The notes: generated from the letters alone by a model not told the origin. A stretch of 64,000 nt of DNA from Candidatus Micrarchaeota archaeon (GCA_041305345.1 JBFYLP010000005.1:109817-173816), one strand, 5' to 3'; counted from the stretch's first letter, positions 17,119 through 53,950 are shown. Translations and numbers: made by a program.

Positions 17119-17119
17119 G

Positions 17120-28476: not shown

Positions 28477-31400
28477 CTAGTTGCCATTTAAATTACGCGC
28501 CTGCTTGCAGGCAAGAAAGTAATGGTAAAGCATATGCATTACCTGATCGGTCGCATCTATCGGGGGCACATATTCTGCCATAGGTGTTGGGCTGGGGCTC
28601 GTTTTTGGCGAATCGTAGGAGGGGCACCAATTCCGCTCATTCGATACGGCAACTTTAACGGCACTTTCGGGCAGGGGCTTTATCGCAACGAAGGTGTCAT
28701 CCGCAGCAGCGGGTTTTTCCACTAGCTTGCCTTCATCCAACCAGCACCGGGATGAAAAAATCGTCCCGTCGGGCTTTTCAAGCGCAAGGCATATGTTCTT
28801 GCCCTCGAAGAGCTTTCTTTGGATGAATAATTCGGTTTCCTTGTCGCCAATGTCTTCCGGCTCGGATTTCGTGCCGGTGCAATCCTTGTTGTCGCATACC
28901 CTGGCTTTTGTCCCGGGGGGCAATTTTGACAGGTCCAGCTGGGCGTTCACGCAAACCTTATCCTTCGTTGCCGTAAATTCATCCTCTTCAGAGCCTTTAT
29001 CCACCGGCAGGCATTTATCAGTATTCTCAGTGCTGACCGGGGTTAGGCTGATGCGCTGTATTGCCTCTTCTGCCAGGGCCGTGCCTTCCATCGACGCCCC
29101 AAAAATTTCCGTTGATTGGTTCTTGGGCTGGTTCTTCACGCCGTATTCGTCCGGCTTGAATGTGAACAGCCAGTAGGCGTCATCCTGGTATTTTGAAATG
29201 TCCCACATCCCCACGGGTTTTCCATCGTGGGTCAGATCAAATTGCGCGCCCTCCCTCAGAAGGTATTTCAGTGCTGCCTTGAAAGCCTCCTCGCTGATGT
29301 CCGAAAAGTCGGCGGAGGAAACGGTGTCCTTTATTTTGCAGTTTTCGGGAGTGGCCATCACGAATGGGATTTGGACATCGCACGCTGAGAATGTTTTCAC
29401 TGACACGAATGTGAGCTCCTTGTTTGCAGGATCAAGCATTACGAATGAAAACGGCTCGAGCATGTTGAAATCATTTACCTTGTCGAGCTTTATCCCCATA
29501 TCAGCACAGCTGTTTTCAATGCCGGTGTAATCGAGAAGCAGGCCGCGGTCATCCAGCCAATCAGGCGGCTGCTTCAGGCCGATGTTGCAGCTCTTGATCT
29601 TGATGTCCCTATTTCCACCAGTTCCCTTAAGGGCACCGAAGGATTCGTCATATATTTTCAGCTTGTCCTGGGTTAGGTCCGTGCTGAACGCATACTTGTT
29701 CATCGTGTAAAGCGTCGGGAGACCGGGTGCATCCTGCTTCACAATCACGGGGTTCTCCAGGTAATGGTATATTGGCGCATTGTTGGAGTTGTCAAGGGAA
29801 ACTGCAATGAAGCGGTCCTTTGGCTGGGGTTTGAGCTTCTCGGATACTTCATTCTTGTTCTTGGAAAGCGCCTTTTGGAGTCCCGCATCAACTGATTCGG
29901 AGGAAAGCGCCTGGTCAAGGGTGAAGAAACCTCCGGAGCTGCTTGAGCCCTGCTCTTCCGTGAGGGCGCTAAAGCTCTTTAGCACGTAGCCCGCGGTCTT
30001 CGCGGAAGCATCCGTCTTGAAGAGGACCGAAACCTCGAGCCCCCTCGTGTCCACTATTGGCTTTGCGTATTGCACGCGCGGCTGGAAGGGGAAGCCCTTT
30101 TGCATCATCCGGTTCATCATCGCCTGCTTGATCGCGCCGAAATTGTTCGTTGCTGCAAGCGCCTCGAAAGTGTTGAGGAATTCCGAGTCGCAAACTGAGG
30201 CATCGAGCATATCCTTCTCAACTGCCCAAAGCTCAGAGCCCGTGACCGTCTGGTCGCAGTAAGCGCCCTCGACGCAGTTATAATCATAGCTGCTCGAAAC
30301 CGACTGCTTGCAAAAGCCGTCGGTCAAAGCCTCGACACCCTTGCAAAGCTCGTATTGCGCCTTGTCTGCAATGTAATCCTGCAAAGTGAGCGCAGCTGCT
30401 TCGGCGATCCTTTCAAGCGCATAGTCGCCAAAGCCCGCAAAATCGAGTTTCTGTATGCGGATGTCCTCGTGGGCCTCCTCGATGTCCTTTGCAACCTCCT
30501 CTGCAGCTTCCTGAAGATCCTTTTCCGAGCAGAAATTATTGCCGCTGCATTGAAGCCCGCCATCGCCTTCGGAGCCCGGATTGCCAATCACGTCGTATGC
30601 GCCATCCGAATCCAGGGTTGTTGGCGAGGGAAGCGCAAGTGGGAAAGGGTCCTCGTCGCGGATCCTCCTTAAATCAAACGTCCGTTCCGTTCCCAGTTTT
30701 AAATTCTGTTCAAAATAATAGAGCTTGTAGAAATCGTCATTTCCCCTGCAGAGTTTGTTTGGGTTTGCTTGATTGCACAGGTCGCCGTTATCAGGAACAT
30801 CAACTAGCTTGCTGCCGGGGATGTTGTTCACCAGATAGAAAGGCTCGACGGCGTCCGTGCCTTCATCGTTCCTTGCGGTTATTTGGGAGGAAACGGGCAC
30901 CGACTGCAGCACGTATTTCCCGATCCCCTCGTTATGGATGATGAATTCAAATTCGATTGAGAACTCCTGCCCGGTTGGCACGAACTTCATAACTATCCGC
31001 TGTTTCTTCGTTTCCTTACCGTCATCGAAGAGGAGCCTGCCTTCCGTTGAGCCCGCTTCCCCGGAGAACTCGTATTTCATCTTCCTCGGATCGTTCGTGA
31101 AAATGAAGGTGGTATAGCGGGGAGCAATGCCGATGATGCTGTTTAGGTCCTGCAATGCGCCGATGATCTTCCCGTCTGGGCCGTTCTTGTCCGCATAGTA
31201 GCCTGCAAGGTATTTGAGTTCTTCGCCGGTGTCGTACAATTGGATGTTCGAGGCGGAGCCGTATGCAAGCGCATAATCATTGATGATCGAGAATGCGGCG
31301 CCGTTGATTGGCAGGAAAGGCGAGAGGTGGACCTTGCAGCTAAAGCCCGCGCCGTTCCCAACGACTTCGCAAATCCCCGGGTCATCCGCAGTTTGGAGGG

Positions 31401-34400
31401 AGGAATACGGCCCCATCTGCAGCTGGTTTTGCTGGTAATACTGCATATTCTGCGAAGCTGCCGGGTTCCAGCTGTTCGTGAAGCCGTTGAAATTCTGGCC
31501 GTAAACCGCAGGCTGCGCAAGCCCGGGGCTTTTAACTGCCTGGATGCCGTTGGTATAAACGTAGAATTTGTAAAAGCTGCTGTATGCTACCTGCTTTGAT
31601 TTTCCCGCCTGGGGCTCGAGCTGGCCGATTAGTCCCTTCGTGAGATGGCCAACGAACCTTTGCGCAAAGTAGTTGTTGTTCTTGTACTTGCAAATCGCAT
31701 CCACATTCCCAACGTACACGATGCCCTTCATCGAATTTTCGCCCATATCCCGGTAATTGTAAATGCCGCTCCTGGTGAATTGGAAGGAATACGTCTTCCC
31801 GGGCTGGATCGAACCCGACTTGAAGGGTACGCCGGAGGGCGATTTGTAGCCCGAAATCGATTGCAGCTGGTGCGCCTTTGAATCCTGGTTGACCCACGTG
31901 ACCTTTGCATTCTCGGGGATCGAAACTGCGGGCGGTTCGAAACCATAGCTGGTGATCACAACGATGGTTCCATTCGTATCCGTTGTCTGCGAAGCGCCGG
32001 GCTTGACAGCTGGCCCTGTGATCACGACTCGGACGCTAAGTTGGGGCTTGTTCGAAAAAGTGATGTAAAGCCTTCCGGTTTGAACAACCGCCCTTTTATT
32101 GGTATCGAGCGTGGCATCCGTGCTTGTTGCAGCTTCCGTTTCGGGAGTGCACGCATCAACTGTGCAGCCAAGAGTTTCCTCAAGCTGCTCGCACGCCTCC
32201 TTCTGTGCAAGGGTGCCAACTTCCGGGCACCTTTGCCTGACGGTGCCGTCTGATTTGTAGTATGTCTTGCCGGTGCTAGCTGTTTTGCTAACGACAACGT
32301 AGCCGCCATCGGTGCAGGAATAAATGGTTTCGACATTCGCATCCCCGCACCTTGAGGAGGGGTCTGCTGCAAACGAAAGCGTTCTCAATTCCGGCCCGCT
32401 GAAGGATAAGGAGCTTGCCTCCTTCCCGCCAAAATTCAAATTGTCAAGATCAGCATAAATGACTCCCTTGTAATACGGATGGCCCGAATAATCCGCCAAA
32501 ACCACAAGGACGCTTGGGTCCGTGGAGCAGTCGAGATTCACGTAATTTTCCATCTTTGCATTCTCATCGGTTTCGGGGCTCCTTATGGTGCAGCCTGTGA
32601 TCGTGCTCCCCCGGGTTATTTCCTGCAGCGAATAATAACCGTTGAACTGCAAAGCCTCATCGAGCTCGAGCGTAAGCGTATCCGTTGGAAGGGCGCCGTA
32701 GGGGGTTGCAGTTGGCGTTAGTTCAATCTTCTTGCAGATGTTCTCAACGCAGGCCATCCCCGCATCGCACTGCGAATCAAGCGTGCAGAATTTTGGCAGG
32801 GCGCAATTGATCTTCACCGGGATCTTGATGTTTGCGTGGCTGCCTCCTGCGGCCTCGCCATCGATGCTAAGGTCGCACGCGCTTCCCTGCCTTGTTGGCG
32901 TAAGCACGAGGCTTTTCTTTTTCTTCGCGCCAAGGGTGAATGCAGCGCCGGTTCCGGATGCTATGGTGTTGACGCCATCGCCTATCAGGGTTATGCAGTT
33001 GGACTGTGCGAGTACGTTGATCTCCGCATTCAGCAGGTTCTCGACATCAAGGGTGCTGCCGTCGCACGAAAGCAGTATCGATTGCGAGCTTGCTGAAAGG
33101 AACTCGGTTAGCGAGACCGCAACCTCCTTCTTTGCATTGCGGAACCCTTCGCGTTTTGCAATGACGGTGAACCTTCCGGTGTTAAGCGGATGCAGCCTTC
33201 GGAACTCGTACACCCCATCAGCGCCCTCCTTTTCCGATCCGTCACCGACGATGGAATCGGGGACCATTCCATCGAATGCGGCGCTTTCGTCCTCCTCTAT
33301 TGTGATTGTGGCATCCGTGATCGCACTTTCATCAAGTGCGTTCTGCAGGAGCACGCGCAGGCTGGAATCATCATTCGCCTGCATCTGCAGGGGCGCAACC
33401 TGCATAAGGAAATCGTTTGTGCCAGTAACCTGCACTGACGATTTCAATGAGATGTATTGGGAATCCGCATCTCCAAAAATAAGCTCCATTCTCGAGTATG
33501 CAGTTGAAAGTAACCCAAGGAGCTCGATCTCGCCCGAAATGGTGCTGCCTTCCTCGAGGCTTTCGAGCTGCCACGTCCATTCCTTCCTCCCTTCCGCATT
33601 CCCGCTGCTGCTTCCGAGCCTGAATGCGCCAAAGGAGAGTTCGCTATCGTCGGTGAGCTTGAGGAACGGTGAGTTTTCATAGCGCTTCAAGGCGCGGAGG
33701 GAGAAATATGCCTTGAAGGGAACGCCTACGTCAACTGCAAAGCCCTTGGAAACCCTTGGCAGGTTGGCTTCCCCGAACTGCAGCGAAAGGCACGCTTTGT
33801 CGTTGCATATGAACCGGTCCTCCGAGATGCGGAAGGAAACGGCATCCGATTCGGCGTAGCACGAATCCCACTCATCGGTCCGCTCCGCAGTGCCTAGGGC
33901 GGCATCCTCCGGAACGCGGGTGAAAATACTCCCGCTTGACGCATAACCGCGATAGTTTATGGAGATCTCGTCGTTTTGCTTTGCCGTAGGCTTGATGAAA
34001 ATCTTAAGCACAACCGCCTTCGTATTTTGCTGCTTTGGAAATTCGTATTGCACCCATTTTGCCATTTTGGCGCTCCCATCGACATCAGAGGACTTGTCGG
34101 ATTTGCAGCTTTGGGAAGGATTGTACGAGAAGCCCTTCGTGACAGCGGAGTTCGCAGGCTTGTCATAATAGGATATTGCCGCAATGTCCTCCTCGGCTGT
34201 CTTTGAATCGCTTCCGCCAACCCTTATGAACATCCCGCCCATTTCGCTTCCAGCTGGTATGTTGAGGACGAATTTCGCATAATAGTACGAGCCCTTGGAA
34301 AGGGATGGAAAATCGCGGGCGTATGTGCCGCCCTCGGTCGATGCAAGGCCCTCAAAGTTGACCGACAGTTCGTTCTTCAATGCCGCGGGTATGAGCTTCA

Positions 34401-36252
34401 CTTCGATTTTCTTCTCGGATTGGGGTTCGACGAAAAGGTCCTCGGTTTCATATTCGAGGTAATTCTGCGATGAGATCTTGAGGTACACCTGCTTGTTTGC
34501 GGGCACCTTAATGCTGCAAGAACCGCTTGAGAAGGCGCACTCGCCATCGGGGATAGCAAGCCCATCCGACCTCAGGAACGCCTTTGCCCCTCCTGCGGGA
34601 ATGGTTTTCTGGTTAGTGGCATCCCTAAGGGAAACAATAAGCGTGCCCATCGGCCTTGCCAGCTTTACAACCACCTCATTTGCATCCCCTACCTCGGGGA
34701 TGAAGGATGAAGATGCGCCGCTTACGCAGTCCTTGCTTGCCGTGACGTAGTACTTGGCTTGGCCGCCAAAGAGCAATGTTGGCACGTTCGAAAATGCGGT
34801 TGTGCCATCTTCGATCGTCAGCTGGTCCTTAAGCCCTAGGAAGAAGCCATCTTCCGTGAAGATGTTTACCTTTGCTGCCTGGGTGAGCTCGCCATCGGAG
34901 TCGAGCACAGTTACCTTGATCCTTGCGGAATTGTCATCCCTTGCATTTTCGAGCTCGATGGAATAGGACTCTCCCATCTGGCCGTCGAGCAAAAGGTTTG
35001 GGAGATACCCATCCTTGTAAGCGCTTATGTACACGATCTTGTCCGTGGTAAATGTTGTTTGGCCCTGGCCATCCGTAGTATTGGAGGCAAGGAGCGCATT
35101 CGTTTCCTGGTTGTACATTCTCACGGCCGCAGCTTCAAGGTTGCTGCCGCCAACTTCCTTCACAGTTATCGTTACCCCGTAGTCGCGGCCGACATCCTTC
35201 TCTTCCAGTTGCAGCTGAAATTCCAATGCGGTTCCGGAAAGTAGGATTTGGGATCCCTCGCTGTCATCCAAGGGGAGGTACGCCTCATCAATGGGATTCG
35301 CAACAACATAAACGCGCTGGCCTACTGCATCGATGTCCGTGAAAAGCACCTTTCCCGACAGATATGTTCTGCCGGAATCAAGAAGCTCGTCATTGCCCGC
35401 AAGGAATAGGCTTACGGTTGCGTCAACGGGATTCCCATCGGTGTCCTTGATGGAAACGAGCACCTCTCCCTTTAAGGGCGCGACCTCGCCGCCCTCGTCA
35501 ACAGGAACCTGCGATTTTTTTGAAAGCGTGACCTGCTTGCTTTTTTCAACCGAAACAACCAGCCTTACCTGCGATGCAACGTAGTTGCTTTTCTCGATTG
35601 TCACGCTCAGCTCGGAATCCAGGTTTGCCGCGGTAAGCAACGCTAGCCCGGACGCATCGGTCACTGCCTGGTCGTAAAGCCCGTTCTCGGAATCGAAATA
35701 TGAAACTGAAGCGCCGCCAAGGGGCACTCCGCTTGCGTCCGCGACCTTGATGGTTACTTTCACCTTCTGGCTTATGCTAGCCCCCCCGGACTGGAGCGCT
35801 GCCGTTATCTCCGGCGTTTCCTTGCTTACAATGAATTCCTTCTCGAATTTCTGCAATCCCGGCTGCTCCGCAACCACCCTTGCGGATTTCCCAACAGGCA
35901 CCTTTTCGAATACCGCCCTTCCCTCGTCATCCGACTCGATGGAACCGAATTCGTTCCCGTCTATTTCCAAAATCACAAGAACGCCGGAAAGCGGATCGCC
36001 ATTTTGCAGCACGGTTATGCCAAGGGACGTTGTGCCTTGGAAGAAAATCCCAAGAGCAAAATATGCGCCAACTGCAATCCCAAGGAGGAGCAGGAGGAAA
36101 ATTGGCAGGGAGGGGACGCCGCGGCTTTCAATTGGGGTGATGAACCAGTCGTAAACGGGCAGCTTTAGCTGCTGCTGGAGGAAATCGCAAAAACCATAGT
36201 AGGAATCCTCAATTTGCCCATAAAGCCCCCTGTCAGTGCCAGTGCTTGCCAT
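28477..36252 (-). CDS. Giant membrane-anchored surface protein 1 (carboxypeptidase-regulatory/Ig-like repeats, cupredoxin-like domain)
   Basis: ~2590-aa ORF; N-terminal TM; repeated V...G.PL.GA.V / TD..G.A beta-sandwiches; GFEP..V.I......WVN.D...H cupredoxin-like segment. Confidence 0.85.
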   Translation of the reverse strand: MASTGTDRGLYGQIEDSYYGFCDFLQQQLKLPVYDWFITPIESRGVPSLPIFLLLLLGIAVGAYFALGIFFQGTTSLGITVLQNGDPLSGVLVILEIDGNEFGSIESDDEGRAVFEKVPVGKSARVVAEQPGLQKFEKEFIVSKETPEITAALQSGGASISQKVKVTIKVADASGVPLGGASVSYFDSENGLYDQAVTDASGLALLTAANLDSELSVTIEKSNYVASQVRLVVSVEKSKQVTLSKKSQVPVDEGGEVAPLKGEVLVSIKDTDGNPVDATVSLFLAGNDELLDSGRTYLSGKVLFTDIDAVGQRVYVVANPIDEAYLPLDDSEGSQILLSGTALEFQLQLEEKDVGRDYGVTITVKEVGGSNLEAAAVRMYNQETNALLASNTTDGQGQTTFTTDKIVYISAYKDGYLPNLLLDGQMGESYSIELENARDDNSARIKVTVLDSDGELTQAAKVNIFTEDGFFLGLKDQLTIEDGTTAFSNVPTLLFGGQAKYYVTASKDCVSGASSSFIPEVGDANEVVVKLARPMGTLIVSLRDATNQKTIPAGGAKAFLRSDGLAIPDGECAFSSGSCSIKVPANKQVYLKISSQNYLEYETEDLFVEPQSEKKIEVKLIPAALKNELSVNFEGLASTEGGTYARDFPSLSKGSYYYAKFVLNIPAGSEMGGMFIRVGGSDSKTAEEDIAAISYYDKPANSAVTKGFSYNPSQSCKSDKSSDVDGSAKMAKWVQYEFPKQQNTKAVVLKIFIKPTAKQNDEISINYRGYASSGSIFTRVPEDAALGTAERTDEWDSCYAESDAVSFRISEDRFICNDKACLSLQFGEANLPRVSKGFAVDVGVPFKAYFSLRALKRYENSPFLKLTDDSELSFGAFRLGSSSGNAEGRKEWTWQLESLEEGSTISGEIELLGLLSTAYSRMELIFGDADSQYISLKSSVQVTGTNDFLMQVAPLQMQANDDSSLRVLLQNALDESAITDATITIEEDESAAFDGMVPDSIVGDGSEKEGADGVYEFRRLHPLNTGRFTVIAKREGFRNAKKEVAVSLTEFLSASSQSILLSCDGSTLDVENLLNAEINVLAQSNCITLIGDGVNTIASGTGAAFTLGAKKKKSLVLTPTRQGSACDLSIDGEAAGGSHANIKIPVKINCALPKFCTLDSQCDAGMACVENICKKIELTPTATPYGALPTDTLTLELDEALQFNGYYSLQEITRGSTITGCTIRSPETDENAKMENYVNLDCSTDPSVLVVLADYSGHPYYKGVIYADLDNLNFGGKEASSLSFSGPELRTLSFAADPSSRCGDANVETIYSCTDGGYVVVSKTASTGKTYYKSDGTVRQRCPEVGTLAQKEACEQLEETLGCTVDACTPETEAATSTDATLDTNKRAVVQTGRLYITFSNKPQLSVRVVITGPAVKPGASQTTDTNGTIVVITSYGFEPPAVSIPENAKVTWVNQDSKAHQLQSISGYKSPSGVPFKSGSIQPGKTYSFQFTRSGIYNYRDMGENSMKGIVYVGNVDAICKYKNNNYFAQRFVGHLTKGLIGQLEPQAGKSKQVAYSSFYKFYVYTNGIQAVKSPGLAQPAVYGQNFNGFTNSWNPAASQNMQYYQQNQLQMGPYSSLQTADDPGICEVVGNGAGFSCKVHLSPFLPINGAAFSIINDYALAYGSASNIQLYDTGEELKYLAGYYADKNGPDGKIIGALQDLNSIIGIAPRYTTFIFTNDPRKMKYEFSGEAGSTEGRLLFDDGKETKKQRIVMKFVPTGQEFSIEFEFIIHNEGIGKYVLQSVPVSSQITARNDEGTDAVEPFYLVNNIPGSKLVDVPDNGDLCNQANPNKLCRGNDDFYKLYYFEQNLKLGTERTFDLRRIRDEDPFPLALPSPTTLDSDGAYDVIGNPGSEGDGGLQCSGNNFCSEKDLQEAAEEVAKDIEEAHEDIRIQKLDFAGFGDYALERIAEAAALTLQDYIADKAQYELCKGVEALTDGFCKQSVSSSYDYNCVEGAYCDQTVTGSELWAVEKDMLDASVCDSEFLNTFEALAATNNFGAIKQAMMNRMMQKGFPFQPRVQYAKPIVDTRGLEVSVLFKTDASAKTAGYVLKSFSALTEEQGSSSSGGFFTLDQALSSESVDAGLQKALSKNKNEVSEKLKPQPKDRFIAVSLDNSNNAPIYHYLENPVIVKQDAPGLPTLYTMNKYAFSTDLTQDKLKIYDESFGALKGTGGNRDIKIKSCNIGLKQPPDWLDDRGLLLDYTGIENSCADMGIKLDKVNDFNMLEPFSFVMLDPANKELTFVSVKTFSACDVQIPFVMATPENCKIKDTVSSADFSDISEEAFKAALKYLLREGAQFDLTHDGKPVGMWDISKYQDDAYWLFTFKPDEYGVKNQPKNQSTEIFGASMEGTALAEEAIQRISLTPVSTENTDKCLPVDKGSEEDEFTATKDKVCVNAQLDLSKLPPGTKARVCDNKDCTGTKSEPEDIGDKETELFIQRKLFEGKNICLALEKPDGTIFSSRCWLDEGKLVEKPAAADDTFVAIKPLPESAVKVAVSNERNWCPSYDSPKTSPSPTPMAEYVPPIDATDQVMHMLYHYFLACKQARNLNGN

Positions 36253-36374
36253 CAGCTTCACCGTTTAAAACGTATCCTCGAAGGAATAAAAACATACCTT
36301 TTGCATCAATGCACGTTGTGGCCGGTTGCCAAATACCCTTTTTAATTCCATTTCCCAAACCCTAATTGATCCCG

Positions 36375-36719
36375 ATGGTTGATGCTAACGCCGTTCTGGA
36401 TGGGATCATCGTCCTCGAGACCGTGATCATCCTCTATAAGCTGCTGCAGCCTTCGCCATCGCAGTTCAAGACAGCTGACTACAAGCGTGAGAAGGTATTG
36501 AAGGAAAAGGGCCTTTCGGAAGTCAAGGCAACGGCAATGAAGCGGCTCAACTCCCTGCTTGATGTCCGGGGAAGGATCACAAGGGAGATTTCGGATGCAA
36601 AAAAAAGGTACATGGCCGGCGAGATCACCTACGAGGCGATGAGAATCATCGAAGCGGAAGGCGAGGGCAGGATCGATGAGGTCGATTTGAAGCTCGCCGA
36701 ATTCGAGGGCGCTTACTGA
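36375..36719 (+). CDS. Hypothetical protein with N-terminal TM and coiled-coil
   Basis: ORF immediately upstream of folD. Confidence 0.6.
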   Translation: MVDANAVLDGIIVLETVIILYKLLQPSPSQFKTADYKREKVLKEKGLSEVKATAMKRLNSLLDVRGRITREISDAKKRYMAGEITYEAMRIIEAEGEGRIDEVDLKLAEFEGAY

Positions 36720-36741
36720 TTTGAAGGGGGGATGATGCGCT

Positions 36742-47722: not shown

Positions 47723-50700
47723 TCAGCACGCATCGCCGTTCCTGCAAACGCTAATGCCGTATGCGGACACGGAGCAGTCGCCAAAACCGCACGCGCGGCA
47801 GCTTTCCACTTCAACATCCCCGAATACCAGCGGGTAATTCGCAAGGTCATACGGCTCGAATATGAGGAATATCGAACGCCGCTTCCTCGTGCCGGTGCCA
47901 AGGAAGCCGCATTTGCCCCGCGCAAAAAACTTGCTGAGGAGGGCCGGGTAATCGCCTTCCTCCCCCTGCTTCGTGGCAAATGCAAATTGATTTGTTGCCG
48001 GCACGTGATTCTGCCAGCCGATGAAGGAATATGAACGTAAATCAAATGCATTGGGGAAATTCGCGACGAATTGGTCCTTGGCTTTTCCTGAAGCACACGA
48101 TAAAGGGCTGCAGGAACGGTCCCAAATGGCAGATGCAACCGCATTCTTGTCATAGCGCGCATCGCCGTCAGGGACAACGGGGTATTCGTTCGTAAGGCAC
48201 CGCTCAAGATATTCATCCTCGGGATACATATCAGCTGGAATCTTGCCCGGGAACCTTGAGTGCAGCCCATACGGGTCGAACAGGTTGCAAGCGACGACGT
48301 TGCCGCAGAAATCCTGCGTGCCCGCCCCCATCGAATCGGGATAATTGTCGCTTATTGCAAGGGGAGAAAGCCCAAAATTCCTCTCCCCGAAGAAGAAGTC
48401 CTCGCCGTTCGTTGTCTGCACCGAGAGCAGGTATATTCCCTGGCGGTATTTGCAATCATCGGGCAGTTGGGCGATCTCAACTAGGTTTTCCCTTGCAGAA
48501 GAGAACTCGGGGTATCTGTTGAATTTGTTATAGACGATGTCCGCACTCAGGGGGAATACCGCCGAGAATGTGATCGGGGCGCTTTCCGCGTTCTGCACGA
48601 AATATTTGTATGGCGACCTGCTTTCAAGCCCGCCAATGCCGGCGCCCATCGTTACCTCGTACAATTCCGCGTCACCGTTCTCCCAGACGTATTCGTACCC
48701 TTCGTCAATCAGGGTGGTGCGGAGGCCTTCAGGGCTGCAATCGCATTCCTCAGGCGTCCCGCAATAATCGCCCTCCGCGATGGATTTCTCCGAGCACGAG
48801 TAGAGGCACTGAATCCCTTCATCGGAGTCTTCGGGAACCCCCGAATCATCGCACGCGTACGCGGTTCCGTCGGGGCCGATGTAGGTTTCGTTGCCCTCCA
48901 CATATGCGCAATGGCCGGTTTCGCACTCGTCGGAAGGCAGGCACCTGATATCGCAAACGTCAACATTGTAGTTGTCCTCGGAGGGCGCACCATATGTTTC
49001 TTCATATGTATCGTGGCAGAAGGTGCACGCCGCGACCTCAATCCTCTGCTTGTTCGTAACCCTCATCCACGCAGCAGCGGAATCCCTGCAAATCTCGGGG
49101 TCATAAGTATCCTCATTGGAAATATCTTCGGGAGGCTTGATGCAATAGAAGGTGGCATCAAAGCTGCGCTTGAACGCGGTCTTCCGCAAGATGTTGCCTG
49201 CAATTTCCTTGAAGGATTCAAGAACTGCGGGGGCATACGCCAACGCGGTCACGTTGGAGTGGCCGATCCTTTGGAATGCCTTGGAATTCAGGTAGGAAGC
49301 AAGGCCCGTGCCTGCCGGGGATGACGAAGCGATGGTTGCAACAACTGGCGGCCTTTGGTTTGCAACAGCGCCCGCATCGGGGTGCACGAATATCTTCTCC
49401 TTCCGGGAATCGTCCCACGAAACCAGGGAAGCATCCTGGCCCGAGCCGATTAATTTGGTGCTCGTTGTGCTTCTTTTAAAATAGCCCGCCGATGGGGAAT
49501 ATTCAGCAGCCCAATATTCCTCATTGTTCGTTATGCCCTTCACGCGGTTGTTGAGCGCATATACCAGCTTCATGGATGATGCCTCCGTGTCGTAATCGTC
49601 GCCATAGAAGGAGAGCGGTAGCGCGGAATCTTTCAAATACGGGGTCTTGTAGTTAATGCCCGAAAACTCCAATGCATTGAGGTCCCCGATGTCGGAATAA
49701 TTCGCAATCGTGATGTTTATGATGCGGCCAGCTGTTCCCGTGCAATTAACCCTCATCTGGATGTTATCGGCTGATGGGACCATGTTGCCAATTGGCTTTA
49801 AGGGGCACGTATCCTTCTTGCCGGGCCAGAAACGCAGCGCATTCCCGCCGGGGGTTGCGCCGGTCACGAAGCAATCGTTATATTTTCTTGGTTCAGAGGC
49901 GGTGCCGAAAGCGTACCCGAGATTGCAGCCTCCAAGGCCCGAATCGTTGAGGGGGATTGCATCTGCGGGGAAGAAGGAATCCACCCTGAATACGATTCTG
50001 TCGCAGGAGGATTCGATGACGGGCTGGCCGGCGCCCGAGTAGGTTTTCTTCATCAATGTGAGCGCATTGCAGCTAAACGGGTTCGGTAGCTGAATGGGAG
50101 GCGAGGCGGGCATGTTCGATGCAATGACAACGTAAGGTTTGATCACAACAGCAGGTGCTGTGCTCGAATGCGAATACGATGCCTTGATGATTGCTGTGCC
50201 GTGCTCCTTGGGAGTGAGGGTGATCCTGCCTTGGAGCTTCGAGCTGTCGGTTATCTGAAGCGTAAATGAATCGGAATCAGCAAGGCTGAACACTTGATTT
50301 CCAACAAGCGCCGTCACGGGAACGAGCAGGTCGTTGCCCAGTATGTCCGAGGAAGCGTCCTGGTTGTAAAGCTCGATCCTCAAGGTTCCGGGCAGCTTGT
50401 TTGCTACCTCGGTAATGTCATAGCTTATCTCGAGCTCGCCTTCGACGCACGAGTTTCCGCAATCCTTGAGGGAATGCGCATTGAACCCATTGCCGCTTTC
50501 CTCCTCATCGCATAAATCTGCGAGGTCCGGATCGATCAGCCCCCTTGGGCATTGCAGCTGCTTGAAATTGAGCTCGACGCACATTTCGTTGTTGCAGTCC
50601 CTATTCCCGAACTTGCAGATGTTTTCCTGCTGGTTGCACATCGTATTTTGCTGGGTGCATTGCGGGTCGGAATCGCAGCACATCTCCCCTTCCTCCCCGC

Positions 50701-53700
50701 ACGGGGTGCAAGCGCCATTCGAACACATAAGGCCAGGAAGGCACTTATTCTCATCATCCTGGCAGCAATATTCATCCTCATCACCGCAGGATTTGCACAG
50801 CCCAAGGTCGCTGCCCTGTTGCTCTATGCAAGCGCCGTTTTCGCACGCATAAGTATCATCCGCAATAGTGCAAAGCTCGCCAAGCCCGCCAAATTCGCAT
50901 AAGGCAAAATCGCTTATGCAGTCCCTGCACTGCGGGTTGTTAAGATTGGTGGTGTCGCATCCCTGGTCGAACCTGCAATCCAAGCACTGGGCCTTCAGGG
51001 TGCAATCATCAACGTAAACGCATTGCCCTTCCTTGCCGGCATCGTAGCAGCAAACAGTGGCGCCCGTGCACTCGTTTTGCGCTGCGCCGCAAAGCTGCTT
51101 TTGGCTGCAAATCCCTTCTGGTGCGCACCAAAGGCCCTCATTGCACGCATCATCCGGATGCTGCCTCGAATATTCGCAGCAAGAATCGGAAAGCCCACCG
51201 CAGGGGATGCACGCATTTTCTGAAGAGCAGGTAAGCCCATCGTCGCATTTATTTGCAGCGCCTGTGCAGCAAGATTCGCCTTCCATCCCGCAGATGTCCT
51301 CGATATCCCTGCATATCGCTAGGCTTCCGGAAGAATCGCAGAACATATTGCCGCCATAGGAAATGCATTCAGGCGTGCATTCGGCGACGCCCCCGTAGCA
51401 TTCTGATGGGGGCACGCACCCCTTCCCCGATCCTTCATTGCAGCAGAGGTCAAAGCCGGTGCAGAAGGTACCTGCGCTTCCGCAGGAGGTAGGGTAGGTG
51501 CAAATCCCCCTTGGGATCGCGCTGGTCACGCTGCATTTCAAATTTTCCACGCACGGGGATGAACCCTCTTGGCCAATTTCGCTTTGGCTGCAGCAAGTCT
51601 CGCCGAAATTGCCGCACGCAAGCACGTCATAGGTCACATTCCTTGTCCTGGCAAAGCACCACGGCTTGCCAGGAATTTCATATGAAAAGCCTAGTTCGGA
51701 ATCAATGGGGTCGCGGATGTATTCGCCATTCGAGACTGCAAAGCCGCGGTAATTTATGACCAGCTCCTCAGCTATTATGTTGGGCACCACCTTGAATCTC
51801 ATCACGACTTTCGAGGAGCCTTCGTATGAATATTCCGCATTCAGCCACGAAAGGCCTACGAAATCATCCTCGCTTGAAATAAAGGGCGCCTCGCATTCCT
51901 CCAGATCAGATAAGCTGCTAGAGCCCTTCACGATAACAGGCGCAAAGCCGTCGTGGGAATAGTTAGTGAAGTATGCGATCTCGGACCCATCGCCTCCGGA
52001 GAGCTGCACGAATAGCCCCCTTGAAGCCGCTCCGGGCTTGCTGTACAAATCGAATGAGACAAGGTATTCCTGGCCTGAAACGAGCCTTGCCTTCGCATTC
52101 CCGTTAAGGTCGGTTATCCGGTCAAGCGTGGCCTTGATGATCGTCCTTGAATCCAAGCGTGCCATCTGCGCATTAACCGGCAAGTCCGCATTCGGGCTTG
52201 CCTTCCTTTTGCCCGAGGCATTCTGGTAATTCCTCGAGTTGATGACCCATTTGAACGTTTTGTCGGACCTCGCCTCTATGGCGCACGAGCCAGTTAGCGA
52301 GGAGCAGGAGCCGTAAAGCGCATTGTTCTTCTCGTTGTCATAATATACGAAGGCGTCAAGCTGGCTAATTGAACCGTTCGTGTCCAGGTCCGTGGCACTA
52401 AAAATAAGCCGGCCCTTGGGCGCATACATCGTGATGTTCGCTTCGAGGTTCAAGGAGAGATCCACTGTTTCAGAGCCTGAAAACTGGTCCTTCGAGGCAA
52501 AAATCGTGTAAGAGGAATATTTCGCAAGGTTCCGAACAACCGCCTTCCCGTTATTGTCGGTCCTCTGTTCATACGGGGGAATCTGGTCGCCAAGCTCGTC
52601 GAAGAATGCAAGCGGGACTGTGCGCATCTTAACGCCATCCTCATTGATTGTGTTGAGGGTGAGGTTGGCGGAATTGTTTGCATATGCCTTGTAGAGGGTG
52701 ATTTTCTTCTCCTGGGAGCCGGCGAATGCGAGCGTCCTTCCCGGAAGGTATCCGTCCTTGAATGCGGTTGCATAGTACCACGTGAGGCTTGAGATCGGGA
52801 ATGTAAGCACGGATGACGCGGCCTCCTTCTTCACGGCGGAATAGTTGCCCTCATCGGAATGTTCCCAAAGCCATATCTGGGATTGCAAGGAAGCATTGCG
52901 CTCATCTTGCACGCGGATGGTAACCGTGCCGTTTTGCAAACCGGATGTTGCACCTATCTTTTTCAATGAAATGGGCCACGCCGTCGTTTCCCTTAGCGTT
53001 TTTTCACTTGCCTTGGGCTCATACCCCTCTGCCCTTGCAATGACCTTGAGCCTCATTCCAACGCGGAATTCATCATCATTCTCATAGGAGCCAAATTCGG
53101 TTTCAACGACCTTCAGCTCGTCCTCTGTTACCGAATCCAGGATCGTTAGCACCGCATCAATGCCCGCATTTGTCGCCTCATCCTTTATGGTGATCTGCAG
53201 CTGGCTGAATTCCAATGAGGCGGGGGTGGGGATTGGCGAAGCCGCCTTGTTGAGCGTTATCCGCCTTGGCTTGCCTGCTTCCGGTGTGTACGTGACTCCG
53301 GAGCTTGTTTGATACCCCGCAAGAGTCACGCTTACCGTGAGCTCCTTATTTTCGGGTACTGGAATGACAACCTTCCCGTCGGCATCCGTACTCGCGCTGC
53401 CGCCTTCTGCCTCATATGAATATTCGACTAATGCGCCTCGCAGCGGCAATCCGGAAAAATCGCTCACGATTATTTCAGCATCGAACAACTCGGGCCTTCT
53501 TAGGCGGATCGTGATTTCCGGCGAATCGCCGATCCTAAAACTCCTCCTTGCATCCGGGAATCCCTCCAAGCTTACGGTTAGGGTCGCTTCCTTGCCCTTT
53601 GGGGGCTTTTCGAATCTGGCGAGCCCGTTCTCGGTTGTCAATAGCTTGGAGTACTCGCCTGCCTCCAGGAGCACGGTTGCGCCCTCGACAGCGCCGTCAT

Positions 53701-53950
53701 CGGAAATGACAAGGACCCGAAGGGTCATTGGCTGCAGCGATACGAAGGCGAATGCGCCTGCGGCAATTAATAGCAAAAACAGCAGGATTGCAACTGGAAA
53801 TGACGGTATTCCCTTTCCCTCTATCGGGTTCACGAATACGTCGTAGATGGGGAATTTGAGGTCCTTTTGGAGGTAATCGCAAAACGAGTAATAGCCCTCC
53901 TCGAGGCCTTTGTAGAATTGATCCACGGAGTCCTTGAGCCCCATTTGCAT
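47723..53950 (-). CDS. Giant membrane-anchored surface protein 3 with Cys-rich repeat block (paralog)
   Basis: 2075 aa; N-terminus nearly collinear with protein 1; CG..G..CC repeats. Confidence 0.85.
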   Translation of the reverse strand: MQMGLKDSVDQFYKGLEEGYYSFCDYLQKDLKFPIYDVFVNPIEGKGIPSFPVAILLFLLLIAAGAFAFVSLQPMTLRVLVISDDGAVEGATVLLEAGEYSKLLTTENGLARFEKPPKGKEATLTVSLEGFPDARRSFRIGDSPEITIRLRRPELFDAEIIVSDFSGLPLRGALVEYSYEAEGGSASTDADGKVVIPVPENKELTVSVTLAGYQTSSGVTYTPEAGKPRRITLNKAASPIPTPASLEFSQLQITIKDEATNAGIDAVLTILDSVTEDELKVVETEFGSYENDDEFRVGMRLKVIARAEGYEPKASEKTLRETTAWPISLKKIGATSGLQNGTVTIRVQDERNASLQSQIWLWEHSDEGNYSAVKKEAASSVLTFPISSLTWYYATAFKDGYLPGRTLAFAGSQEKKITLYKAYANNSANLTLNTINEDGVKMRTVPLAFFDELGDQIPPYEQRTDNNGKAVVRNLAKYSSYTIFASKDQFSGSETVDLSLNLEANITMYAPKGRLIFSATDLDTNGSISQLDAFVYYDNEKNNALYGSCSSLTGSCAIEARSDKTFKWVINSRNYQNASGKRKASPNADLPVNAQMARLDSRTIIKATLDRITDLNGNAKARLVSGQEYLVSFDLYSKPGAASRGLFVQLSGGDGSEIAYFTNYSHDGFAPVIVKGSSSLSDLEECEAPFISSEDDFVGLSWLNAEYSYEGSSKVVMRFKVVPNIIAEELVINYRGFAVSNGEYIRDPIDSELGFSYEIPGKPWCFARTRNVTYDVLACGNFGETCCSQSEIGQEGSSPCVENLKCSVTSAIPRGICTYPTSCGSAGTFCTGFDLCCNEGSGKGCVPPSECYGGVAECTPECISYGGNMFCDSSGSLAICRDIEDICGMEGESCCTGAANKCDDGLTCSSENACIPCGGLSDSCCEYSRQHPDDACNEGLWCAPEGICSQKQLCGAAQNECTGATVCCYDAGKEGQCVYVDDCTLKAQCLDCRFDQGCDTTNLNNPQCRDCISDFALCEFGGLGELCTIADDTYACENGACIEQQGSDLGLCKSCGDEDEYCCQDDENKCLPGLMCSNGACTPCGEEGEMCCDSDPQCTQQNTMCNQQENICKFGNRDCNNEMCVELNFKQLQCPRGLIDPDLADLCDEEESGNGFNAHSLKDCGNSCVEGELEISYDITEVANKLPGTLRIELYNQDASSDILGNDLLVPVTALVGNQVFSLADSDSFTLQITDSSKLQGRITLTPKEHGTAIIKASYSHSSTAPAVVIKPYVVIASNMPASPPIQLPNPFSCNALTLMKKTYSGAGQPVIESSCDRIVFRVDSFFPADAIPLNDSGLGGCNLGYAFGTASEPRKYNDCFVTGATPGGNALRFWPGKKDTCPLKPIGNMVPSADNIQMRVNCTGTAGRIINITIANYSDIGDLNALEFSGINYKTPYLKDSALPLSFYGDDYDTEASSMKLVYALNNRVKGITNNEEYWAAEYSPSAGYFKRSTTSTKLIGSGQDASLVSWDDSRKEKIFVHPDAGAVANQRPPVVATIASSSPAGTGLASYLNSKAFQRIGHSNVTALAYAPAVLESFKEIAGNILRKTAFKRSFDATFYCIKPPEDISNEDTYDPEICRDSAAAWMRVTNKQRIEVAACTFCHDTYEETYGAPSEDNYNVDVCDIRCLPSDECETGHCAYVEGNETYIGPDGTAYACDDSGVPEDSDEGIQCLYSCSEKSIAEGDYCGTPEECDCSPEGLRTTLIDEGYEYVWENGDAELYEVTMGAGIGGLESRSPYKYFVQNAESAPITFSAVFPLSADIVYNKFNRYPEFSSARENLVEIAQLPDDCKYRQGIYLLSVQTTNGEDFFFGERNFGLSPLAISDNYPDSMGAGTQDFCGNVVACNLFDPYGLHSRFPGKIPADMYPEDEYLERCLTNEYPVVPDGDARYDKNAVASAIWDRSCSPLSCASGKAKDQFVANFPNAFDLRSYSFIGWQNHVPATNQFAFATKQGEEGDYPALLSKFFARGKCGFLGTGTRKRRSIFLIFEPYDLANYPLVFGDVEVESCRACGFGDCSVSAYGISVCRNGDAC

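What the first reader, a model, noticed from the sequence alone, without database searches (positions are those of the whole stretch)
28477..53950. Cluster of three paralogous giant surface proteins with a conserved pre-TM N-terminal motif
About 20 kb encodes 2.1-2.6 kaa proteins beginning with a conserved segment just before a single TM: EDSYYGFCDFLQ..LKLPVYDWFITPIESRGVPSLP, EEGYYSFCDYLQ..LKFPIYDVFVNPIEGKGIPSFP, and the shorter KEQY...LEEKGVPSP. Collinear Ig-like repeats follow, and the C-terminal halves are wholly different (seen). A constant base with variable tips suggests a diversified attachment or cell-contact apparatus. The N-terminal motif may be an undescribed cytoplasmic docking or export signal (inference).
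Basis: partly seen in the sequence, partly recalled or inferred. Interest (0 to 1): 0.65.

Follow-up and report, generated by a model that had tools for sequence, protein, structure and literature searches.

The report
Conserved N-terminal anchor of giant archaeal surface proteins
Three giant membrane-anchored surface proteins of a tiny symbiotic (Micrarchaeota, DPANN) archaeon start with the same roughly 50-residue helical module just before their only membrane helix; this module matches no domain model, solved structure or paper I could search, yet it heads hundreds of giant protein families in this lineage, so it is probably their shared anchoring or sorting device.

Summary
Three minus-strand genes (A 28477-36252, B 40219-46734, C 47723-53950; 2591, 2171 and 2075 aa) are paralogues. 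They are collinear over the first ~800-1180 residues and unrelated beyond that.

A and C begin with a strongly conserved ~50-aa segment followed by one ~21-residue hydrophobic helix. B carries a shortened version.

The module is not private to this genome. A profile finds 766 protein clusters, always at the extreme N-terminus of large Ig-stalk proteins. A DNA pattern scan of 185,579 species genomes returned 64 loci: 63 real, in Micrarchaeota-lineage genomes or one unlabelled archaeal MAG, and one chance match. Diapherotrites have a variant.

No Pfam, NCBIfam, PDB or literature match exists.

AlphaFold2 (pLDDT 97) gives an amphipathic helix, a loop, a short helix and then the membrane helix. 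The two halves are an internal duplication (...L-E-x-K-G-I-P-x-aromatic).

Most likely reading: N-in signal-anchor proteins. A cytoplasmic hairpin handle leads to a membrane helix, then a ~6-Ig stalk long enough to cross the envelope, then lineage-specific distal halves.

The tips are not hypervariable. A- and C-type each have full-length orthologues in other species, some at syntenic positions. Whether the module is retained or cleaved is untested.

The parts
28477..36252 (-). Gene A: giant surface protein, 2591 aa from the ATG (the ORF extends to a GTG at 36261), 282 kDa, pI 4.7
   Evidence: database copy P0001 is 2591 aa and starts MASTG; TATA-like TTTTTATT ~35 nt upstream of the ATG
36103..36252 (-). 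A: N-terminal module, aa 1-50 (MASTGTDRGLYGQIEDSYYGFCDFLQQQLKLPVYDWFITPIESRGVPSLP), predicted cytoplasmic helix-loop-helix
   Evidence: (110 bits to the family profile)
36040..36102 (-). A: the only transmembrane helix, aa 51-71
32722..36039 (-). A: shared base, aa 72-1177. About 6 small prealbumin/Ig-like domains, one larger beta-sandwich, then 3 further beta domains
   Evidence: (AF2 mean pLDDT 86.8, all-beta)
28480..32721 (-). A: lineage-specific distal half. It includes a cupredoxin-like domain without copper ligands (31711-31983). It is conserved in A-type orthologues only
40219..46734 (-). Gene B: giant surface protein, 2171 aa, 234 kDa
46636..46734 (-). B: shortened N-terminal module, aa 1-33, with a single unit (...LMASLEEKGVPSP)
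   Evidence: (P0160 has the same short form; P0161 and the third giant of L004 have a divergent full form)
46564..46632 (-). B: the only transmembrane helix
43207..46563 (-). B: shared base, collinear with A to aa ~1176
40222..43206 (-). B: lineage-specific distal half; no recognisable domains
47723..53950 (-). Gene C: giant surface protein, 2075 aa, 225 kDa, 99 Cys
53795..53950 (-). C: N-terminal module, aa 1-52
   Evidence: 105 bits; AF2 pLDDT 97
53735..53794 (-). C: the only transmembrane helix, aa 53-72
51515..53734 (-). C: shared base, collinear with A to aa ~812
50441..51616 (-). C: cysteine-rich knot-like repeats (CG..GE.CC......C..GL.C), ~58 Cys between aa 800 and 1200; no family match
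47726..51514 (-). C: lineage-specific distal part, conserved in C-type orthologues (P0016, P0059, P0116)
36366..36719 (+). Small 117-aa protein (one TM plus a charged helical tail), divergently transcribed from gene A. It is a conserved neighbour of A-type giants in at least 6 genomes and is a candidate partner (inference)

Best explanation
A, B and C belong to a large lineage-specific family of N-terminally anchored giant envelope proteins of Micrarchaeota (with a variant in Diapherotrites).

Architecture, shown by sequence and structure prediction:
1. A ~45-50-residue N-terminal module. It consists of an amphipathic, aromatic/acidic helix, a G-[ILV]-P turn, a short second helix and a second E-x-[RK]-G-[IV]-P-S-F-P turn. 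It arose by internal duplication of one ~14-residue unit.
2. One ~21-residue membrane helix immediately after the module.
3. About six small Ig/prealbumin-like domains within 5-10 residues of the membrane.
4. A larger beta-sandwich and more beta domains.
5. A lineage-specific distal half.

Mechanism, inferred:
- The proteins insert through Sec as type II signal-anchors (N-in, C-out).
- The module stays on the cytoplasmic face as a folded or interfacial hairpin. It fixes the topology and acts as a common handle for all paralogues, either for self-association or for a shared cytoplasmic or membrane partner that positions them.
- The Ig stalk (6 x ~4 nm) carries the distal half across the 20-25 nm pseudoperiplasm and the S-layer.
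- The three different distal halves contact different external ligands, most plausibly on host or neighbouring cells.
For: Family and module:
- The profile of the first 68 residues finds 766 clusters at 50% identity (327 at E<=1e-10). In the top 151 the module starts at residue 1-48 (100 of them at residue 1). Most proteins are 1.2-3.7 kaa.
- Near-invariant positions are Y11, E15, Y18, Y19, D23, Y34, P40, E42 (100%), G45, P47, S48 and P50.
- It is the best conserved 50-aa block of the first 1400 residues.
- The internal duplication shows only in one register: columns 21-34 vs 37-50 score +1.46 BLOSUM62 per residue and 26% identity, against 10% or less at every other offset. B and P0160 have one unit.

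Structure: AF2 with a 79-sequence alignment gives pLDDT 97, with helix 3-27, helix 33-43, membrane helix 48-69 and then a beta-sandwich. Helix 1 is amphipathic (muH ~0.5).

Anchor rather than a typical signal peptide: the uncharged run after PSFP has a median of 21 residues (IQR 18-22, n=134). It is the only hydrophobic segment, and there is no C-terminal anchor, LPXTG or PGF.

Outside location of the bulk:
- The domain types are extracellular ones.
- C has 99 Cys in knot-like repeats, and pI is 4.5-4.7.
- N-X-S/T sequons are strongly avoided in A (3 vs 17.3+-3.6 expected), in B (2 vs 12.7+-3.2) and in A-orthologues (2-5 vs 18). A neighbouring secreted-looking ORF has 34 sequons in 882 aa.

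Stalk: AF2 of A residues 60-1180 is all-beta, with pLDDT 86.8. The pseudoperiplasm of a cultivated Micrarchaeon measures 20-25 nm (bioRxiv 10.1101/2021.04.28.441871).

Lineage restriction: 63 of 64 hits in 185,579 species genomes are real, spread over 42 assemblies labelled Micrarchaeota, Micrarchaeia or Norongarragalinales, or in one case only 'archaeon'. Nineteen assemblies have 2-3 copies. Viral contigs gave 0 hits.

Precedent: clusters of giant membrane-anchored proteins in DPANN have been proposed to mediate cell-cell interaction (PMC5905446; PMC10266531).
Against: - No experiment or proteomic datum shows topology, retention of the module, surface exposure or any ligand.
- The module is net acidic (mean -3) and the flanks of the helix are nearly neutral, so the positive-inside rule does not support N-in. 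N-in rests on the nature of the C-terminal domains.
- Small residues (GG[AG]A) in the middle of the hydrophobic stretch could also be read as the c-region of a cleavable signal peptide.
- No conserved partner gene was found apart from a small neighbour of the A-type only.
- A- and C-type are conserved, syntenic, single-copy-like orthologues. That fits a housekeeping envelope role as well as host adhesion.
- The stalk length is an estimate from a domain count, not measured on coordinates.
Confidence: 0.55

Rival explanations
1. Extended, cleaved signal peptide. The module plus the hydrophobic stretch is a long Sec signal peptide with a conserved N-region, working like the ESPR of autotransporters/TPS proteins or the YSIRK-G/S signal of Gram-positive surface proteins. 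It would tune targeting or translocation of very large cargo and then be removed by signal peptidase I. The mature protein would be released or held by other envelope components.
For: - The module is tied to very large secreted-type proteins and sits strictly at the N-terminus, as ESPR and YSIRK do (my own knowledge of those families).
- Small residues are frequent at columns 61-64 (G/G/A/A) inside the hydrophobic stretch.
- Nearly every member has some (-3,-1)-compatible site (141/142), though the rule used is very permissive.
- Conflicting signal peptide vs TM predictions are reported even for the Micrarchaeum S-layer protein.
Against: - The hydrophobic run is 18-22 residues, which is TM length rather than a 7-15-residue h-region. 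AF2 models it as one continuous helix.
- Only ~5-10 residues separate it from the first Ig domain.
- Cleavage in the GGAA region would leave a hydrophobic mature N-terminus.
- No other anchor exists in A-C.
- There is no Pfam match to ESPR or YSIRK.
Confidence: 0.2
2. Prepilin-type (class III) processing. A membrane aspartyl peptidase of the PibD/FlaK type cuts at the cytoplasmic face between the invariant G45 and I/V46 (E-x-R-G | I-P-S-F-P-hydrophobic). This would leave a pilin-like hydrophobic N-terminus, so the giants would act as 'modular pilins' or tip adhesins of a type IV pilus-like fibre, or as bindosome-like surface assemblies.
For: - The geometry fits. There is a basic residue at -2 (R/K/H 74%), Gly at -1 (96%) and I/V/L at +1 (89%), directly followed by ~20 hydrophobic residues.
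- Type IV pilus loci are reported in a cultivated Micrarchaeon, where they are linked to adhesion-type proteins (PMC5498576).
- Archaeal non-pilin proteins with class III signals, and bacterial modular pilins, exist (my own knowledge).
Against: - The FlaFind-like class III pattern, written from memory, matched 0 of 142 members at the conserved G, because of the invariant P at +2.
- The leader would be ~45 residues and the best conserved part of the protein, unlike known prepilin leaders.
- No pilus-assembly or A24-peptidase gene was found among the ORFs scanned in this window.
Confidence: 0.07
3. Housekeeping envelope scaffold, not host adhesins. The proteins would be structural spacers or anchors that hold the S-layer at a fixed distance or organise the pseudoperiplasm. 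The distal halves would interact with the cell's own envelope. This rival concerns what the distal halves do; it is compatible with the retained-anchor reading of the module.
For: - A-type and C-type are conserved orthologues over their full length (A-type 37-48% identity, C-type 36-40%). Several sit among housekeeping genes in conserved synteny.
- There is no sign of hypervariation or recombination cassettes.
- The family is widespread in the lineage.
- The estimated stalk length is close to the pseudoperiplasm width.
Against: - The distal halves (1,000-1,400 aa) are far larger than needed for spacing and differ completely between paralogues.
- A distinct abundant S-layer protein with its own N-terminal TM or signal is already known in Micrarchaeota.
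- Copy number and length vary widely between genomes (0.5-3.7 kaa, 1-3 or more copies).
- By comparison, giant proteins in other DPANN are proposed host-interaction factors.
Confidence: 0.2

Closest known systems
Clusters of giant membrane-anchored proteins reported in other DPANN archaea: five >1,800-aa proteins in one 42-kb region of the Diapherotrite Ca. Forterrea multitransposorum (PMC5905446), and the SPEARE-type giant surface proteins of Nanohaloarchaeota (PMC10266531)
   Same: They occur in small-genome symbiotic archaea and take up several percent of the genome. They have a single N-terminal hydrophobic segment, long runs of Ig-like domains and a proposed role in cell-cell contact. The Forterrea proteins may be the same family, because Diapherotrites carry the IPFFP variant of the module; this was not tested directly.
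   Different: No published description of a conserved pre-TM module was found. SPEARE-type proteins are 5-9 kaa, are described with an ordinary Sec signal peptide and carry a VirB4/TraG-like ATPase domain. A-C have no P-loop ATPase domain: the one loose Walker-A-like string lies inside the cupredoxin-like domain of A.
ESPR (extended signal peptide region) of autotransporters/two-partner secretion exoproteins, and the YSIRK-G/S signal peptide of Gram-positive surface proteins
   Same: What it works like: a conserved sequence block N-terminal to the hydrophobic core of the export signal, found specifically on very large surface proteins and thought to govern how or where they are exported (my own knowledge).
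   Different: Those are bacterial, with unrelated sequence, and there is no Pfam match. They are shorter, belong to cleaved signal peptides and have a basic n-region. Here there is a 45-50-aa acidic/aromatic helical hairpin and a TM-length hydrophobic helix.
Intimin/invasin-type and other N-anchored Ig-stalk adhesins (Big_1 stalk with a receptor-binding tip), and PrgB-type Ig-domain adhesins
   Same: An N-terminal membrane anchor, a rigid stalk of bacterial Ig-like domains and a distal binding region. There are weak Big_1, Invasin_D3, SpaA and MG-domain similarities and Foldseek hits to PrgB Ig domains and to MG arrays.
   Different: There is no beta-barrel anchor and no outer membrane. The Big_1 scores are below Pfam's cut-off. 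No C-type lectin tip, thioester or LPXTG was found.
Archaeal class III (prepilin-like) signal peptides
   Same: A [KR]-G motif directly before a ~20-residue hydrophobic helix at the cytoplasmic membrane face.
   Different: The leader is ~45 residues and highly conserved. An invariant Pro at +2 breaks the known pattern (0/142).
C-terminal sorting domains (PGF-CTERM, Loki-CTERM, PEP-CTERM) recognised by archaeosortases/exosortases
   Same: A short Pro-containing signature (here G-I-P-S-F-P) fused to a TM helix, shared by many large surface proteins of one lineage. There is a 12-bit sub-threshold similarity to Loki-CTERM over the PSFP+TM stretch.
   Different: It is at the N-terminus and so has the opposite orientation. 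The signature lies on the cytoplasmic side, not the outer side. The score is below the cut-off and is driven by the hydrophobic stretch.

Membership tests
Unnamed Micrarchaeota/Diapherotrites family of N-terminal hairpin + TM + Ig-stalk giant proteins (as delimited here) | Significant match to the 68-column N-terminal profile | tested here: met
   A scores 110 bits and C 105 bits; both are recovered in the 1.84-billion-protein search (P0001, P0011). B matches only the second unit (12.8 bits), so B is a member through the homology of its stalk, with a truncated module.
Unnamed Micrarchaeota/Diapherotrites family of N-terminal hairpin + TM + Ig-stalk giant proteins (as delimited here) | Module at the extreme N-terminus, directly followed by the only TM helix (18-22 uncharged residues) | tested here: met
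Unnamed Micrarchaeota/Diapherotrites family of N-terminal hairpin + TM + Ig-stalk giant proteins (as delimited here) | Collinear homology of the following ~750-1100 residues (CarboxypepD_reg-like Ig domains plus the larger beta-sandwich) | tested here: met
   A vs P0002-P0008 and about 60 further members; B and C vs the same set
ESPR (PF13018) / YSIRK (PF04650) extended signal peptides | Match to the Pfam model | tested here: not met
   No Pfam hit on the N-terminus, even at E<=10
ESPR (PF13018) / YSIRK (PF04650) extended signal peptides | Part of a signal peptide removed by signal peptidase I | not testable with these tools
   No signal-peptide predictor or proteomic data were available; the hydrophobic run of median 21 aa argues against it
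Archaeal class III (prepilin-like) signal peptide | FlaFind-type pattern [KRDE][GA][ALIFQMVED][ILMVTAS]x3 at the start of the hydrophobic stretch (pattern written from memory) | tested here: not met
   0 of 142 family members match at the conserved G
Archaeal class III (prepilin-like) signal peptide | Cleavage by a PibD/FlaK/EppA peptidase | not testable with these tools
   This needs biochemistry or N-terminal proteomics
SPEARE-type nanohaloarchaeal giant proteins | VirB4/TraG-like ATPase domain, or the serine protease and other domains originally proposed | tested here: not met
   No such Pfam or NCBIfam hits. B and C have no Walker-A string; the one loose match in A lies in the cupredoxin-like domain
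Micrarchaeota S-layer protein (SLP_Mh type, PF05123 S-layer domain) | N-terminal S-layer domain PF05123 and a size of ~100 kDa | tested here: not met
   No PF05123 hit; the proteins are 225-282 kDa
Alpha-2-macroglobulin / thioester proteins | Thioester motif (CGEQ) and a TED domain in addition to the MG domains | tested here: not met
   Only MG-like beta-sandwich similarity (bMG3 37.8 bits); no C[GLSA]EQ motif
Blue copper proteins (cupredoxin), for the A domain at aa 1427-1517 | Cupredoxin fold signature plus the His/Cys/His/Met copper ligands | tested here: not met
   The fold-level match is significant with the A-type profile (E 1e-10). However, A reads YNYRDMGENSM where amicyanin-type proteins have H-C-x2-H-x2-M, whereas homologue P0006 keeps YSYHCSIHPQM. 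The ligand positions are from my own knowledge.

The most novel reading that the evidence does not exclude
The module would be the first N-terminal sorting domain of archaeal surface proteins. It would be a lineage-specific signal read by dedicated machinery: either a cytoplasmic or membrane scaffold that gathers all giant adhesins at the host-contact site, or a membrane protease that cuts at the invariant E-x-R-G|I-P-S-F-P. It would be the N-terminal counterpart of PGF-CTERM/archaeosortase or of YSIRK/ESPR, and the entry point to the host-attachment apparatus of Micrarchaeota and Diapherotrites.
Probability: 0.25. Interest if true: 0.75.

Novelty: new variant of a known kind. Interest (0 to 1): 0.55.

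Why it matters
DPANN archaea depend on contact with other cells, yet the molecules that make that contact are almost unknown outside Nanohaloarchaeota and Nanoarchaeota.

This finding gives a simple sequence handle: a 50-residue profile, or even a 17-codon DNA pattern that produced a single chance match in 596 Gb. With it, the whole repertoire of giant envelope proteins can be pulled out of any Micrarchaeota or Diapherotrites genome.

It also defines three old orthologous lineages (A-, B- and C-type) with different distal halves.

It points to one short, testable element that all of them share on the cytoplasmic side. If that element is a sorting or docking signal, its partner would be the organiser of the attachment apparatus. 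If it is only a topogenic anchor, it is still a useful family marker and deserves a domain model.

Tried and rejected
- The word-index homology search with the three N-termini alone found nothing, not even the window's own proteins. This is a sensitivity limit of that tool for short queries; the exhaustive HMMER search superseded it.
I replaced it with a hand-designed degenerate DNA pattern.
An exact look-up of protein A's contig found no record.
- Foldseek of the module model against PDB gave no hit at E<=1e-3. The weak hits cover only the Ig-like domain. Foldseek of the stalk returned only generic multi-Ig/MG arrays at TM 0.1-0.3, so A2M, contactin or PrgB membership is rejected.
- PDB sequence and profile searches found only a ligand-less cupredoxin-like domain in the A-type and nothing for the C-type.
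- DGR-type or cassette-type hypervariation of the tips is rejected: there are no direct or inverted DNA repeats in 28-54 kb.
- An ATPase-bearing SPEARE-like design is rejected for A-C.
- C-terminal anchors (PGF-CTERM, LPXTG, a second TM) are absent.
- The hit P0013 (29 repeats matching helix 1) is a Diplonema 'kinesin' repeat protein and is spurious.
- L037 (an Ectothiorhodospiraceae bin) is the single chance match of the DNA pattern.
- ORFs 36342-37457(-) and 39700-40131(-) look non-coding: the first is antisense to FolD, the second is low-complexity.
- The (-3,-1) rule for signal peptidase sites was uninformative (141/142 positive).

Full report
**1. What is in the window**

The region holds three very long minus-strand ORFs:
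- A: 28477-36261
- B: 40219-46734
- C: 47723-53950

For A the real start is most likely the ATG at 36252. The identical database protein P0001 has 2591 aa and starts MASTG, and a TATA-like TTTTTATT lies ~35 nt upstream. The products are 2591, 2171 and 2075 aa (282, 234 and 225 kDa; pI 4.5-4.7).

The genes are separated by housekeeping genes:
- between A and B: FolD, a SpoIIM-like membrane protein, an inositol monophosphatase and a small 117-aa ORF;
- between B and C: a riboflavin-synthase-like gene.

A DUF373 membrane protein and a GT4 glycosyltransferase follow A. An AAA+/Mg-chelatase-like ATPase is divergent from C.

**2. Check of the observation**

- BLASTP gives A~B 24% identity over ~1200 aa (E 1e-56), A~C 26% over ~800 aa (E 3e-54) and B~C E 7e-9. 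Nothing aligns beyond those stretches.
- Each protein has a single hydrophobic segment, near its N-terminus.
- Pfam finds only CarboxypepD_reg, Big_1, SpaA and MG-type beta-sandwich domains in the N-terminal halves, plus a cupredoxin-like domain in A.
- The quoted motif strings are correct.
- In a six-frame search of the whole window with the family profile, only A (4.5e-34) and C (4e-32) score.
- B's N-terminus matches only the second half of the profile (12.8 bits).

**3. The organism and the family**

Full-length homologues of A are all 2.3-2.7-kaa proteins of Candidatus Micrarchaeota, Micrarchaeia or Diapherotrites metagenome-assembled genomes. They are annotated 'hypothetical' or 'carboxypeptidase regulatory-like domain-containing', and all start with the same segment.

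A profile of the first 68 residues (9 sequences) was searched with HMMER against 1.84 billion representative proteins.
- It returned 766 proteins at E<=1e-3 and 327 at E<=1e-10.
- In the 151 valid hits among the best 152 (the shown 150 plus the earlier P0004 and P0006, which also scored locally), the match starts at residue 1-48; in 100 of them it starts at residue 1.
- The median length is ~1460 aa and the upper quartile exceeds 2100 aa. The short entries look like contig-end fragments.
- One hit, P0013, is a Diplonema repeat protein and is spurious.

A degenerate DNA pattern for Y-x3-[VI]-x-P-[ILV]-E-x2-G-[IV]-P-S-F-P was scanned over one genome for each of 185,579 species.
- It gave 64 loci. 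Sixty-three are real N-termini of this family.
- Every one lies in an assembly labelled Micrarchaeota, Micrarchaeia or Norongarragalinales, or in one case simply 'archaeon'. One hit is a chance match.
- They fall in 42 assemblies, of which 19 have two or three pattern-positive copies.
- Viral contigs gave no hit.

Diapherotrites proteins carry a variant with IPFFP.

**4. Is the motif a known domain?**

- Pfam-A (2025) and NCBIfam (2026) give nothing on the N-termini, even at E<=10. The exceptions are a 12-bit sub-threshold similarity of the PSFP+hydrophobic stretch to the Loki-CTERM sorting domain and other noise.
- PDB sequence searches and a Foldseek search of the predicted structure find nothing for the module.
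- Full-text searches for the motif strings, for Micrarchaeota surface or giant proteins and for DPANN large proteins found no description of it.
- The Micrarchaeota S-layer protein is a different, ~101-kDa protein.
- What is already published is the general phenomenon: five >1,800-aa membrane-anchored proteins in a 42-kb region of a Diapherotrite (PMC5905446) and giant surface proteins in Nanohaloarchaeota (PMC10266531).

**5. Anatomy of the module**

Column statistics over 151 members:

| Position | Residue and frequency |
|---|---|
| 11 | Y 93% |
| 15 | E 99% |
| 18 | Y 87% |
| 19 | Y 97% |
| 23 | D 93% |
| 25 | L 85% |
| 34 | Y 93% |
| 40 | P 96% |
| 42 | E 100% |
| 45 | G 96% |
| 47 | P 99% |
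| 48 | S 90% |
| 49 | F 84% |
| 50 | P 97% |

An uncharged run with a median of 21 residues follows (IQR 18-22).

AlphaFold2 with a 79-sequence alignment models C with mean pLDDT 97: helix 3-27, loop, helix 33-43, loop (K-G-I-P), membrane helix 48-69. The first beta-sandwich starts only ~5 residues later. Helix 1 is amphipathic, with an aromatic stripe (muH ~0.5).

The two halves of the module are an internal duplication. Columns 21-34 (F-M-D-x-L-E-x-K-G-I-P-V-Y) against columns 37-50 (F-V-x-P-I-E-x-R-G-I-P-S-F-P) score +1.46 BLOSUM62 per residue and 26% identity. Every other offset gives 10% identity or less and a negative score.

B and its homologue P0160 keep one unit (...SLEEKGVPSP / ...SLEEKGVPNP). 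The related P0161 and the third giant of a 1.3-Mb Micrarchaeia contig keep a divergent two-unit form. B's form is therefore a derived truncation.

The module is the best conserved 50-residue block within the first 1400 residues of ten family members.

**6. The rest of the proteins**

AlphaFold2 of A residues 60-1180 (31-sequence alignment) gives mean pLDDT 86.8 and an all-beta string: about six ~80-90-residue sandwiches, one larger sandwich (A ~633-820) and three further beta domains. Foldseek returns only generic multi-Ig/MG arrays with TM 0.1-0.3.

About 60 family members are collinear with A over ~750-1100 residues.

The distal halves:
- A has a cupredoxin-like domain. The match is significant with an A-type profile (E 1e-10), but the Cys/His ligands present in homologue P0006 are missing. 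The rest of A's distal half has no match.
- C has ~390 residues of cysteine-knot-like repeats (58 Cys) and no match at all, even with a profile.
- B has nothing recognisable.
- None of the three has a thioester motif, LPXTG, a C-terminal TM or a PGF-type tail. None has a P-loop ATPase domain.

**7. The tips are different but not hypervariable**

- A-type orthologues (P0002-P0005, P0018, P0025) align with A over almost the whole length: ~48% identity in the N half and ~37% in the C half.
- C-type orthologues (P0016, P0059, P0116) align at 36-40% over ~2050 aa.
- Synteny is kept. In GCA_043813365 the order is IMPase-SpoIIM-FolD-small ORF-giant-DUF373-UPF0147-GT4, as in the window.
- FolD and/or the small ORF accompany A-type genes in at least six genomes. 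The AAA+ ATPase and the riboflavin-synthase-like gene accompany C-type genes elsewhere.
- A distant Micrarchaeia genome has three tandem giants.
- No DNA repeats, template/variable repeat pairs or cassettes exist in 28-54 kb.

The picture is three old paralogous lineages with a common base, not a rapidly diversifying array.

**8. How it most likely works**

Shown: the architecture, the lineage restriction, the conservation and the predicted secondary structure.

Inferred: the bulk of each protein is outside the cell. The reasons are:
- extracellular-type domains;
- abundant cysteines;
- acidic pI;
- a striking avoidance of N-glycosylation sequons in A (3 vs 17.3+-3.6 expected), in B (2 vs 12.7+-3.2) and in A-orthologues (2-5 vs ~18). 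C is not depleted (16 vs 14.8), and a neighbouring secreted-looking ORF has 34 sequons in 882 aa. Selection on sequons makes sense only for polypeptides exposed to the oligosaccharyltransferase on the outer face.

With a single N-terminal, TM-length hydrophobic helix and no other anchor, the simplest model is a type II signal-anchor with the module on the cytoplasmic face.

Six Ig-like domains (~4 nm each, my estimate) would span roughly the 20-25 nm pseudoperiplasm measured in a cultivated Micrarchaeon. That would place the larger sandwich and the distal half at or beyond the S-layer.

The module would then be a common cytoplasmic handle with three possible roles:
- topogenic: a pre-folded N-terminus that cannot be translocated;
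- interfacial: an amphipathic aromatic helix;
- a site for self-association or for a shared partner.

The conserved acidic residues (E15, D16, D23, E42) and the GG in the middle of the membrane helix fit a specific interaction, but no partner is identified. The only candidate seen is the 117-aa TM protein divergently adjacent to A-type genes.

I put 0.55 on this overall model.

**9. Rivals**

- Cleaved extended signal peptide, working like ESPR/YSIRK: 0.2. It is disfavoured by the length and continuity of the hydrophobic helix and by the absence of any other anchor.
- Prepilin-type cleavage at R-G|I-P-S-F-P: 0.07. The geometry is right, but the known pattern is not met in 0/142 members and the leader would be unprecedentedly long and conserved.
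- A housekeeping envelope scaffold rather than host adhesins: 0.2. It is compatible with the anchor model and is supported by the orthology and synteny.

None can be settled without N-terminal proteomics or reporter fusions.

**10. Verdict**

The finding is best filed as a new variant of a known kind: DPANN giant N-anchored Ig-stalk surface proteins, distinguished by a previously undescribed, internally duplicated, lineage-specific pre-TM module.

Noticed in passing
window 3650-20900: This is a low-GC island (GC 0.38-0.44 against ~0.52 elsewhere) carrying a 2041-aa RHS/Tc-type polymorphic toxin (8525-14650, minus strand). The toxin has SpvB, FG-GAP/EF-hand-like repeats, TcdB_midN, RHS repeats and a C-terminal Tox-REase-9 domain. 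The island also holds an orphan RHS C-terminal cassette with Ntox35 (5225-6832, minus), an Imm11-like immunity gene (6930-7562, minus), an AbiEii toxin with a DUF6577 partner (16288-18163) and a Fic protein (19934-20905). Three copies of the RHS core end (3656-4009, 5888-6241, 9347-9700) suggest a toxin-tip displacement array. An RHS toxin system in a DPANN archaeon is unusual.
   Followed up: partly
window 28477-36252 and 40219-46734, compared with 47723-53950 and 1180-3828: N-X-S/T sequons are almost absent from A (3 observed, 17.3 expected) and B (2 vs 12.7), and from A-type orthologues in other genomes (2-5 vs ~18). C has the expected number (16). An 882-aa beta-helix-like secreted ORF at 1180-3828 (minus strand, no Pfam hit) has 34. 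This suggests selective avoidance of N-glycosylation on some giant proteins.
   Followed up: partly
window 36366-36719 (+): This 117-aa ORF has one N-terminal TM helix and a highly charged helical tail. It has no Pfam match. It is conserved (38-52% identity) and divergently adjacent to A-type giant genes in at least six Micrarchaeota genomes (L001/L052, L002, L027, L035, L042, L068).
   Followed up: partly
window 31711-31983 (-), and P0006 residues ~1200-1277: The cupredoxin-like domain in A has lost the copper ligands (YNYRDMGENSM). The distant family member P0006 keeps a complete type-1 copper site signature (YSYHCSIHPQM).
   Followed up: no
P0147 (Diapherotrites, partial, 843 aa), residues 796-836: This family member's Ig stalk runs into a HerA_C-like P-loop stretch (E 1e-9) just before the contig ends. 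[quoted passage not shown] It was not seen in A-C.
   Followed up: no
L003/L004 10001-27302 (1.3-Mb Micrarchaeia contig JBAZVF010000001): Three family members (2433, 1816 and 2943 aa) lie head-to-tail with no intervening genes. This is a tighter cluster than in the window. The third has the divergent B-like module.
   Followed up: partly
L058 5707-6492: Two family members are transcribed divergently, with their module-coding ends less than 700 bp apart.
   Followed up: no
window 50441-51616 (-): C contains about 390 residues of repeated cysteine-knot-like units (CG..GE.CC......C..GL.C.....C). They match nothing in Pfam, NCBIfam or PDB and are conserved in C-type orthologues.
   Followed up: partly
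window 14611-16020 (+), 22722-23867 (+): Further predicted envelope proteins are nearby: a NosD/right-handed beta-helix protein and a PEGA-domain protein with Pro/Ser-rich linkers (DNA repeats at 23319-23665).
   Followed up: no
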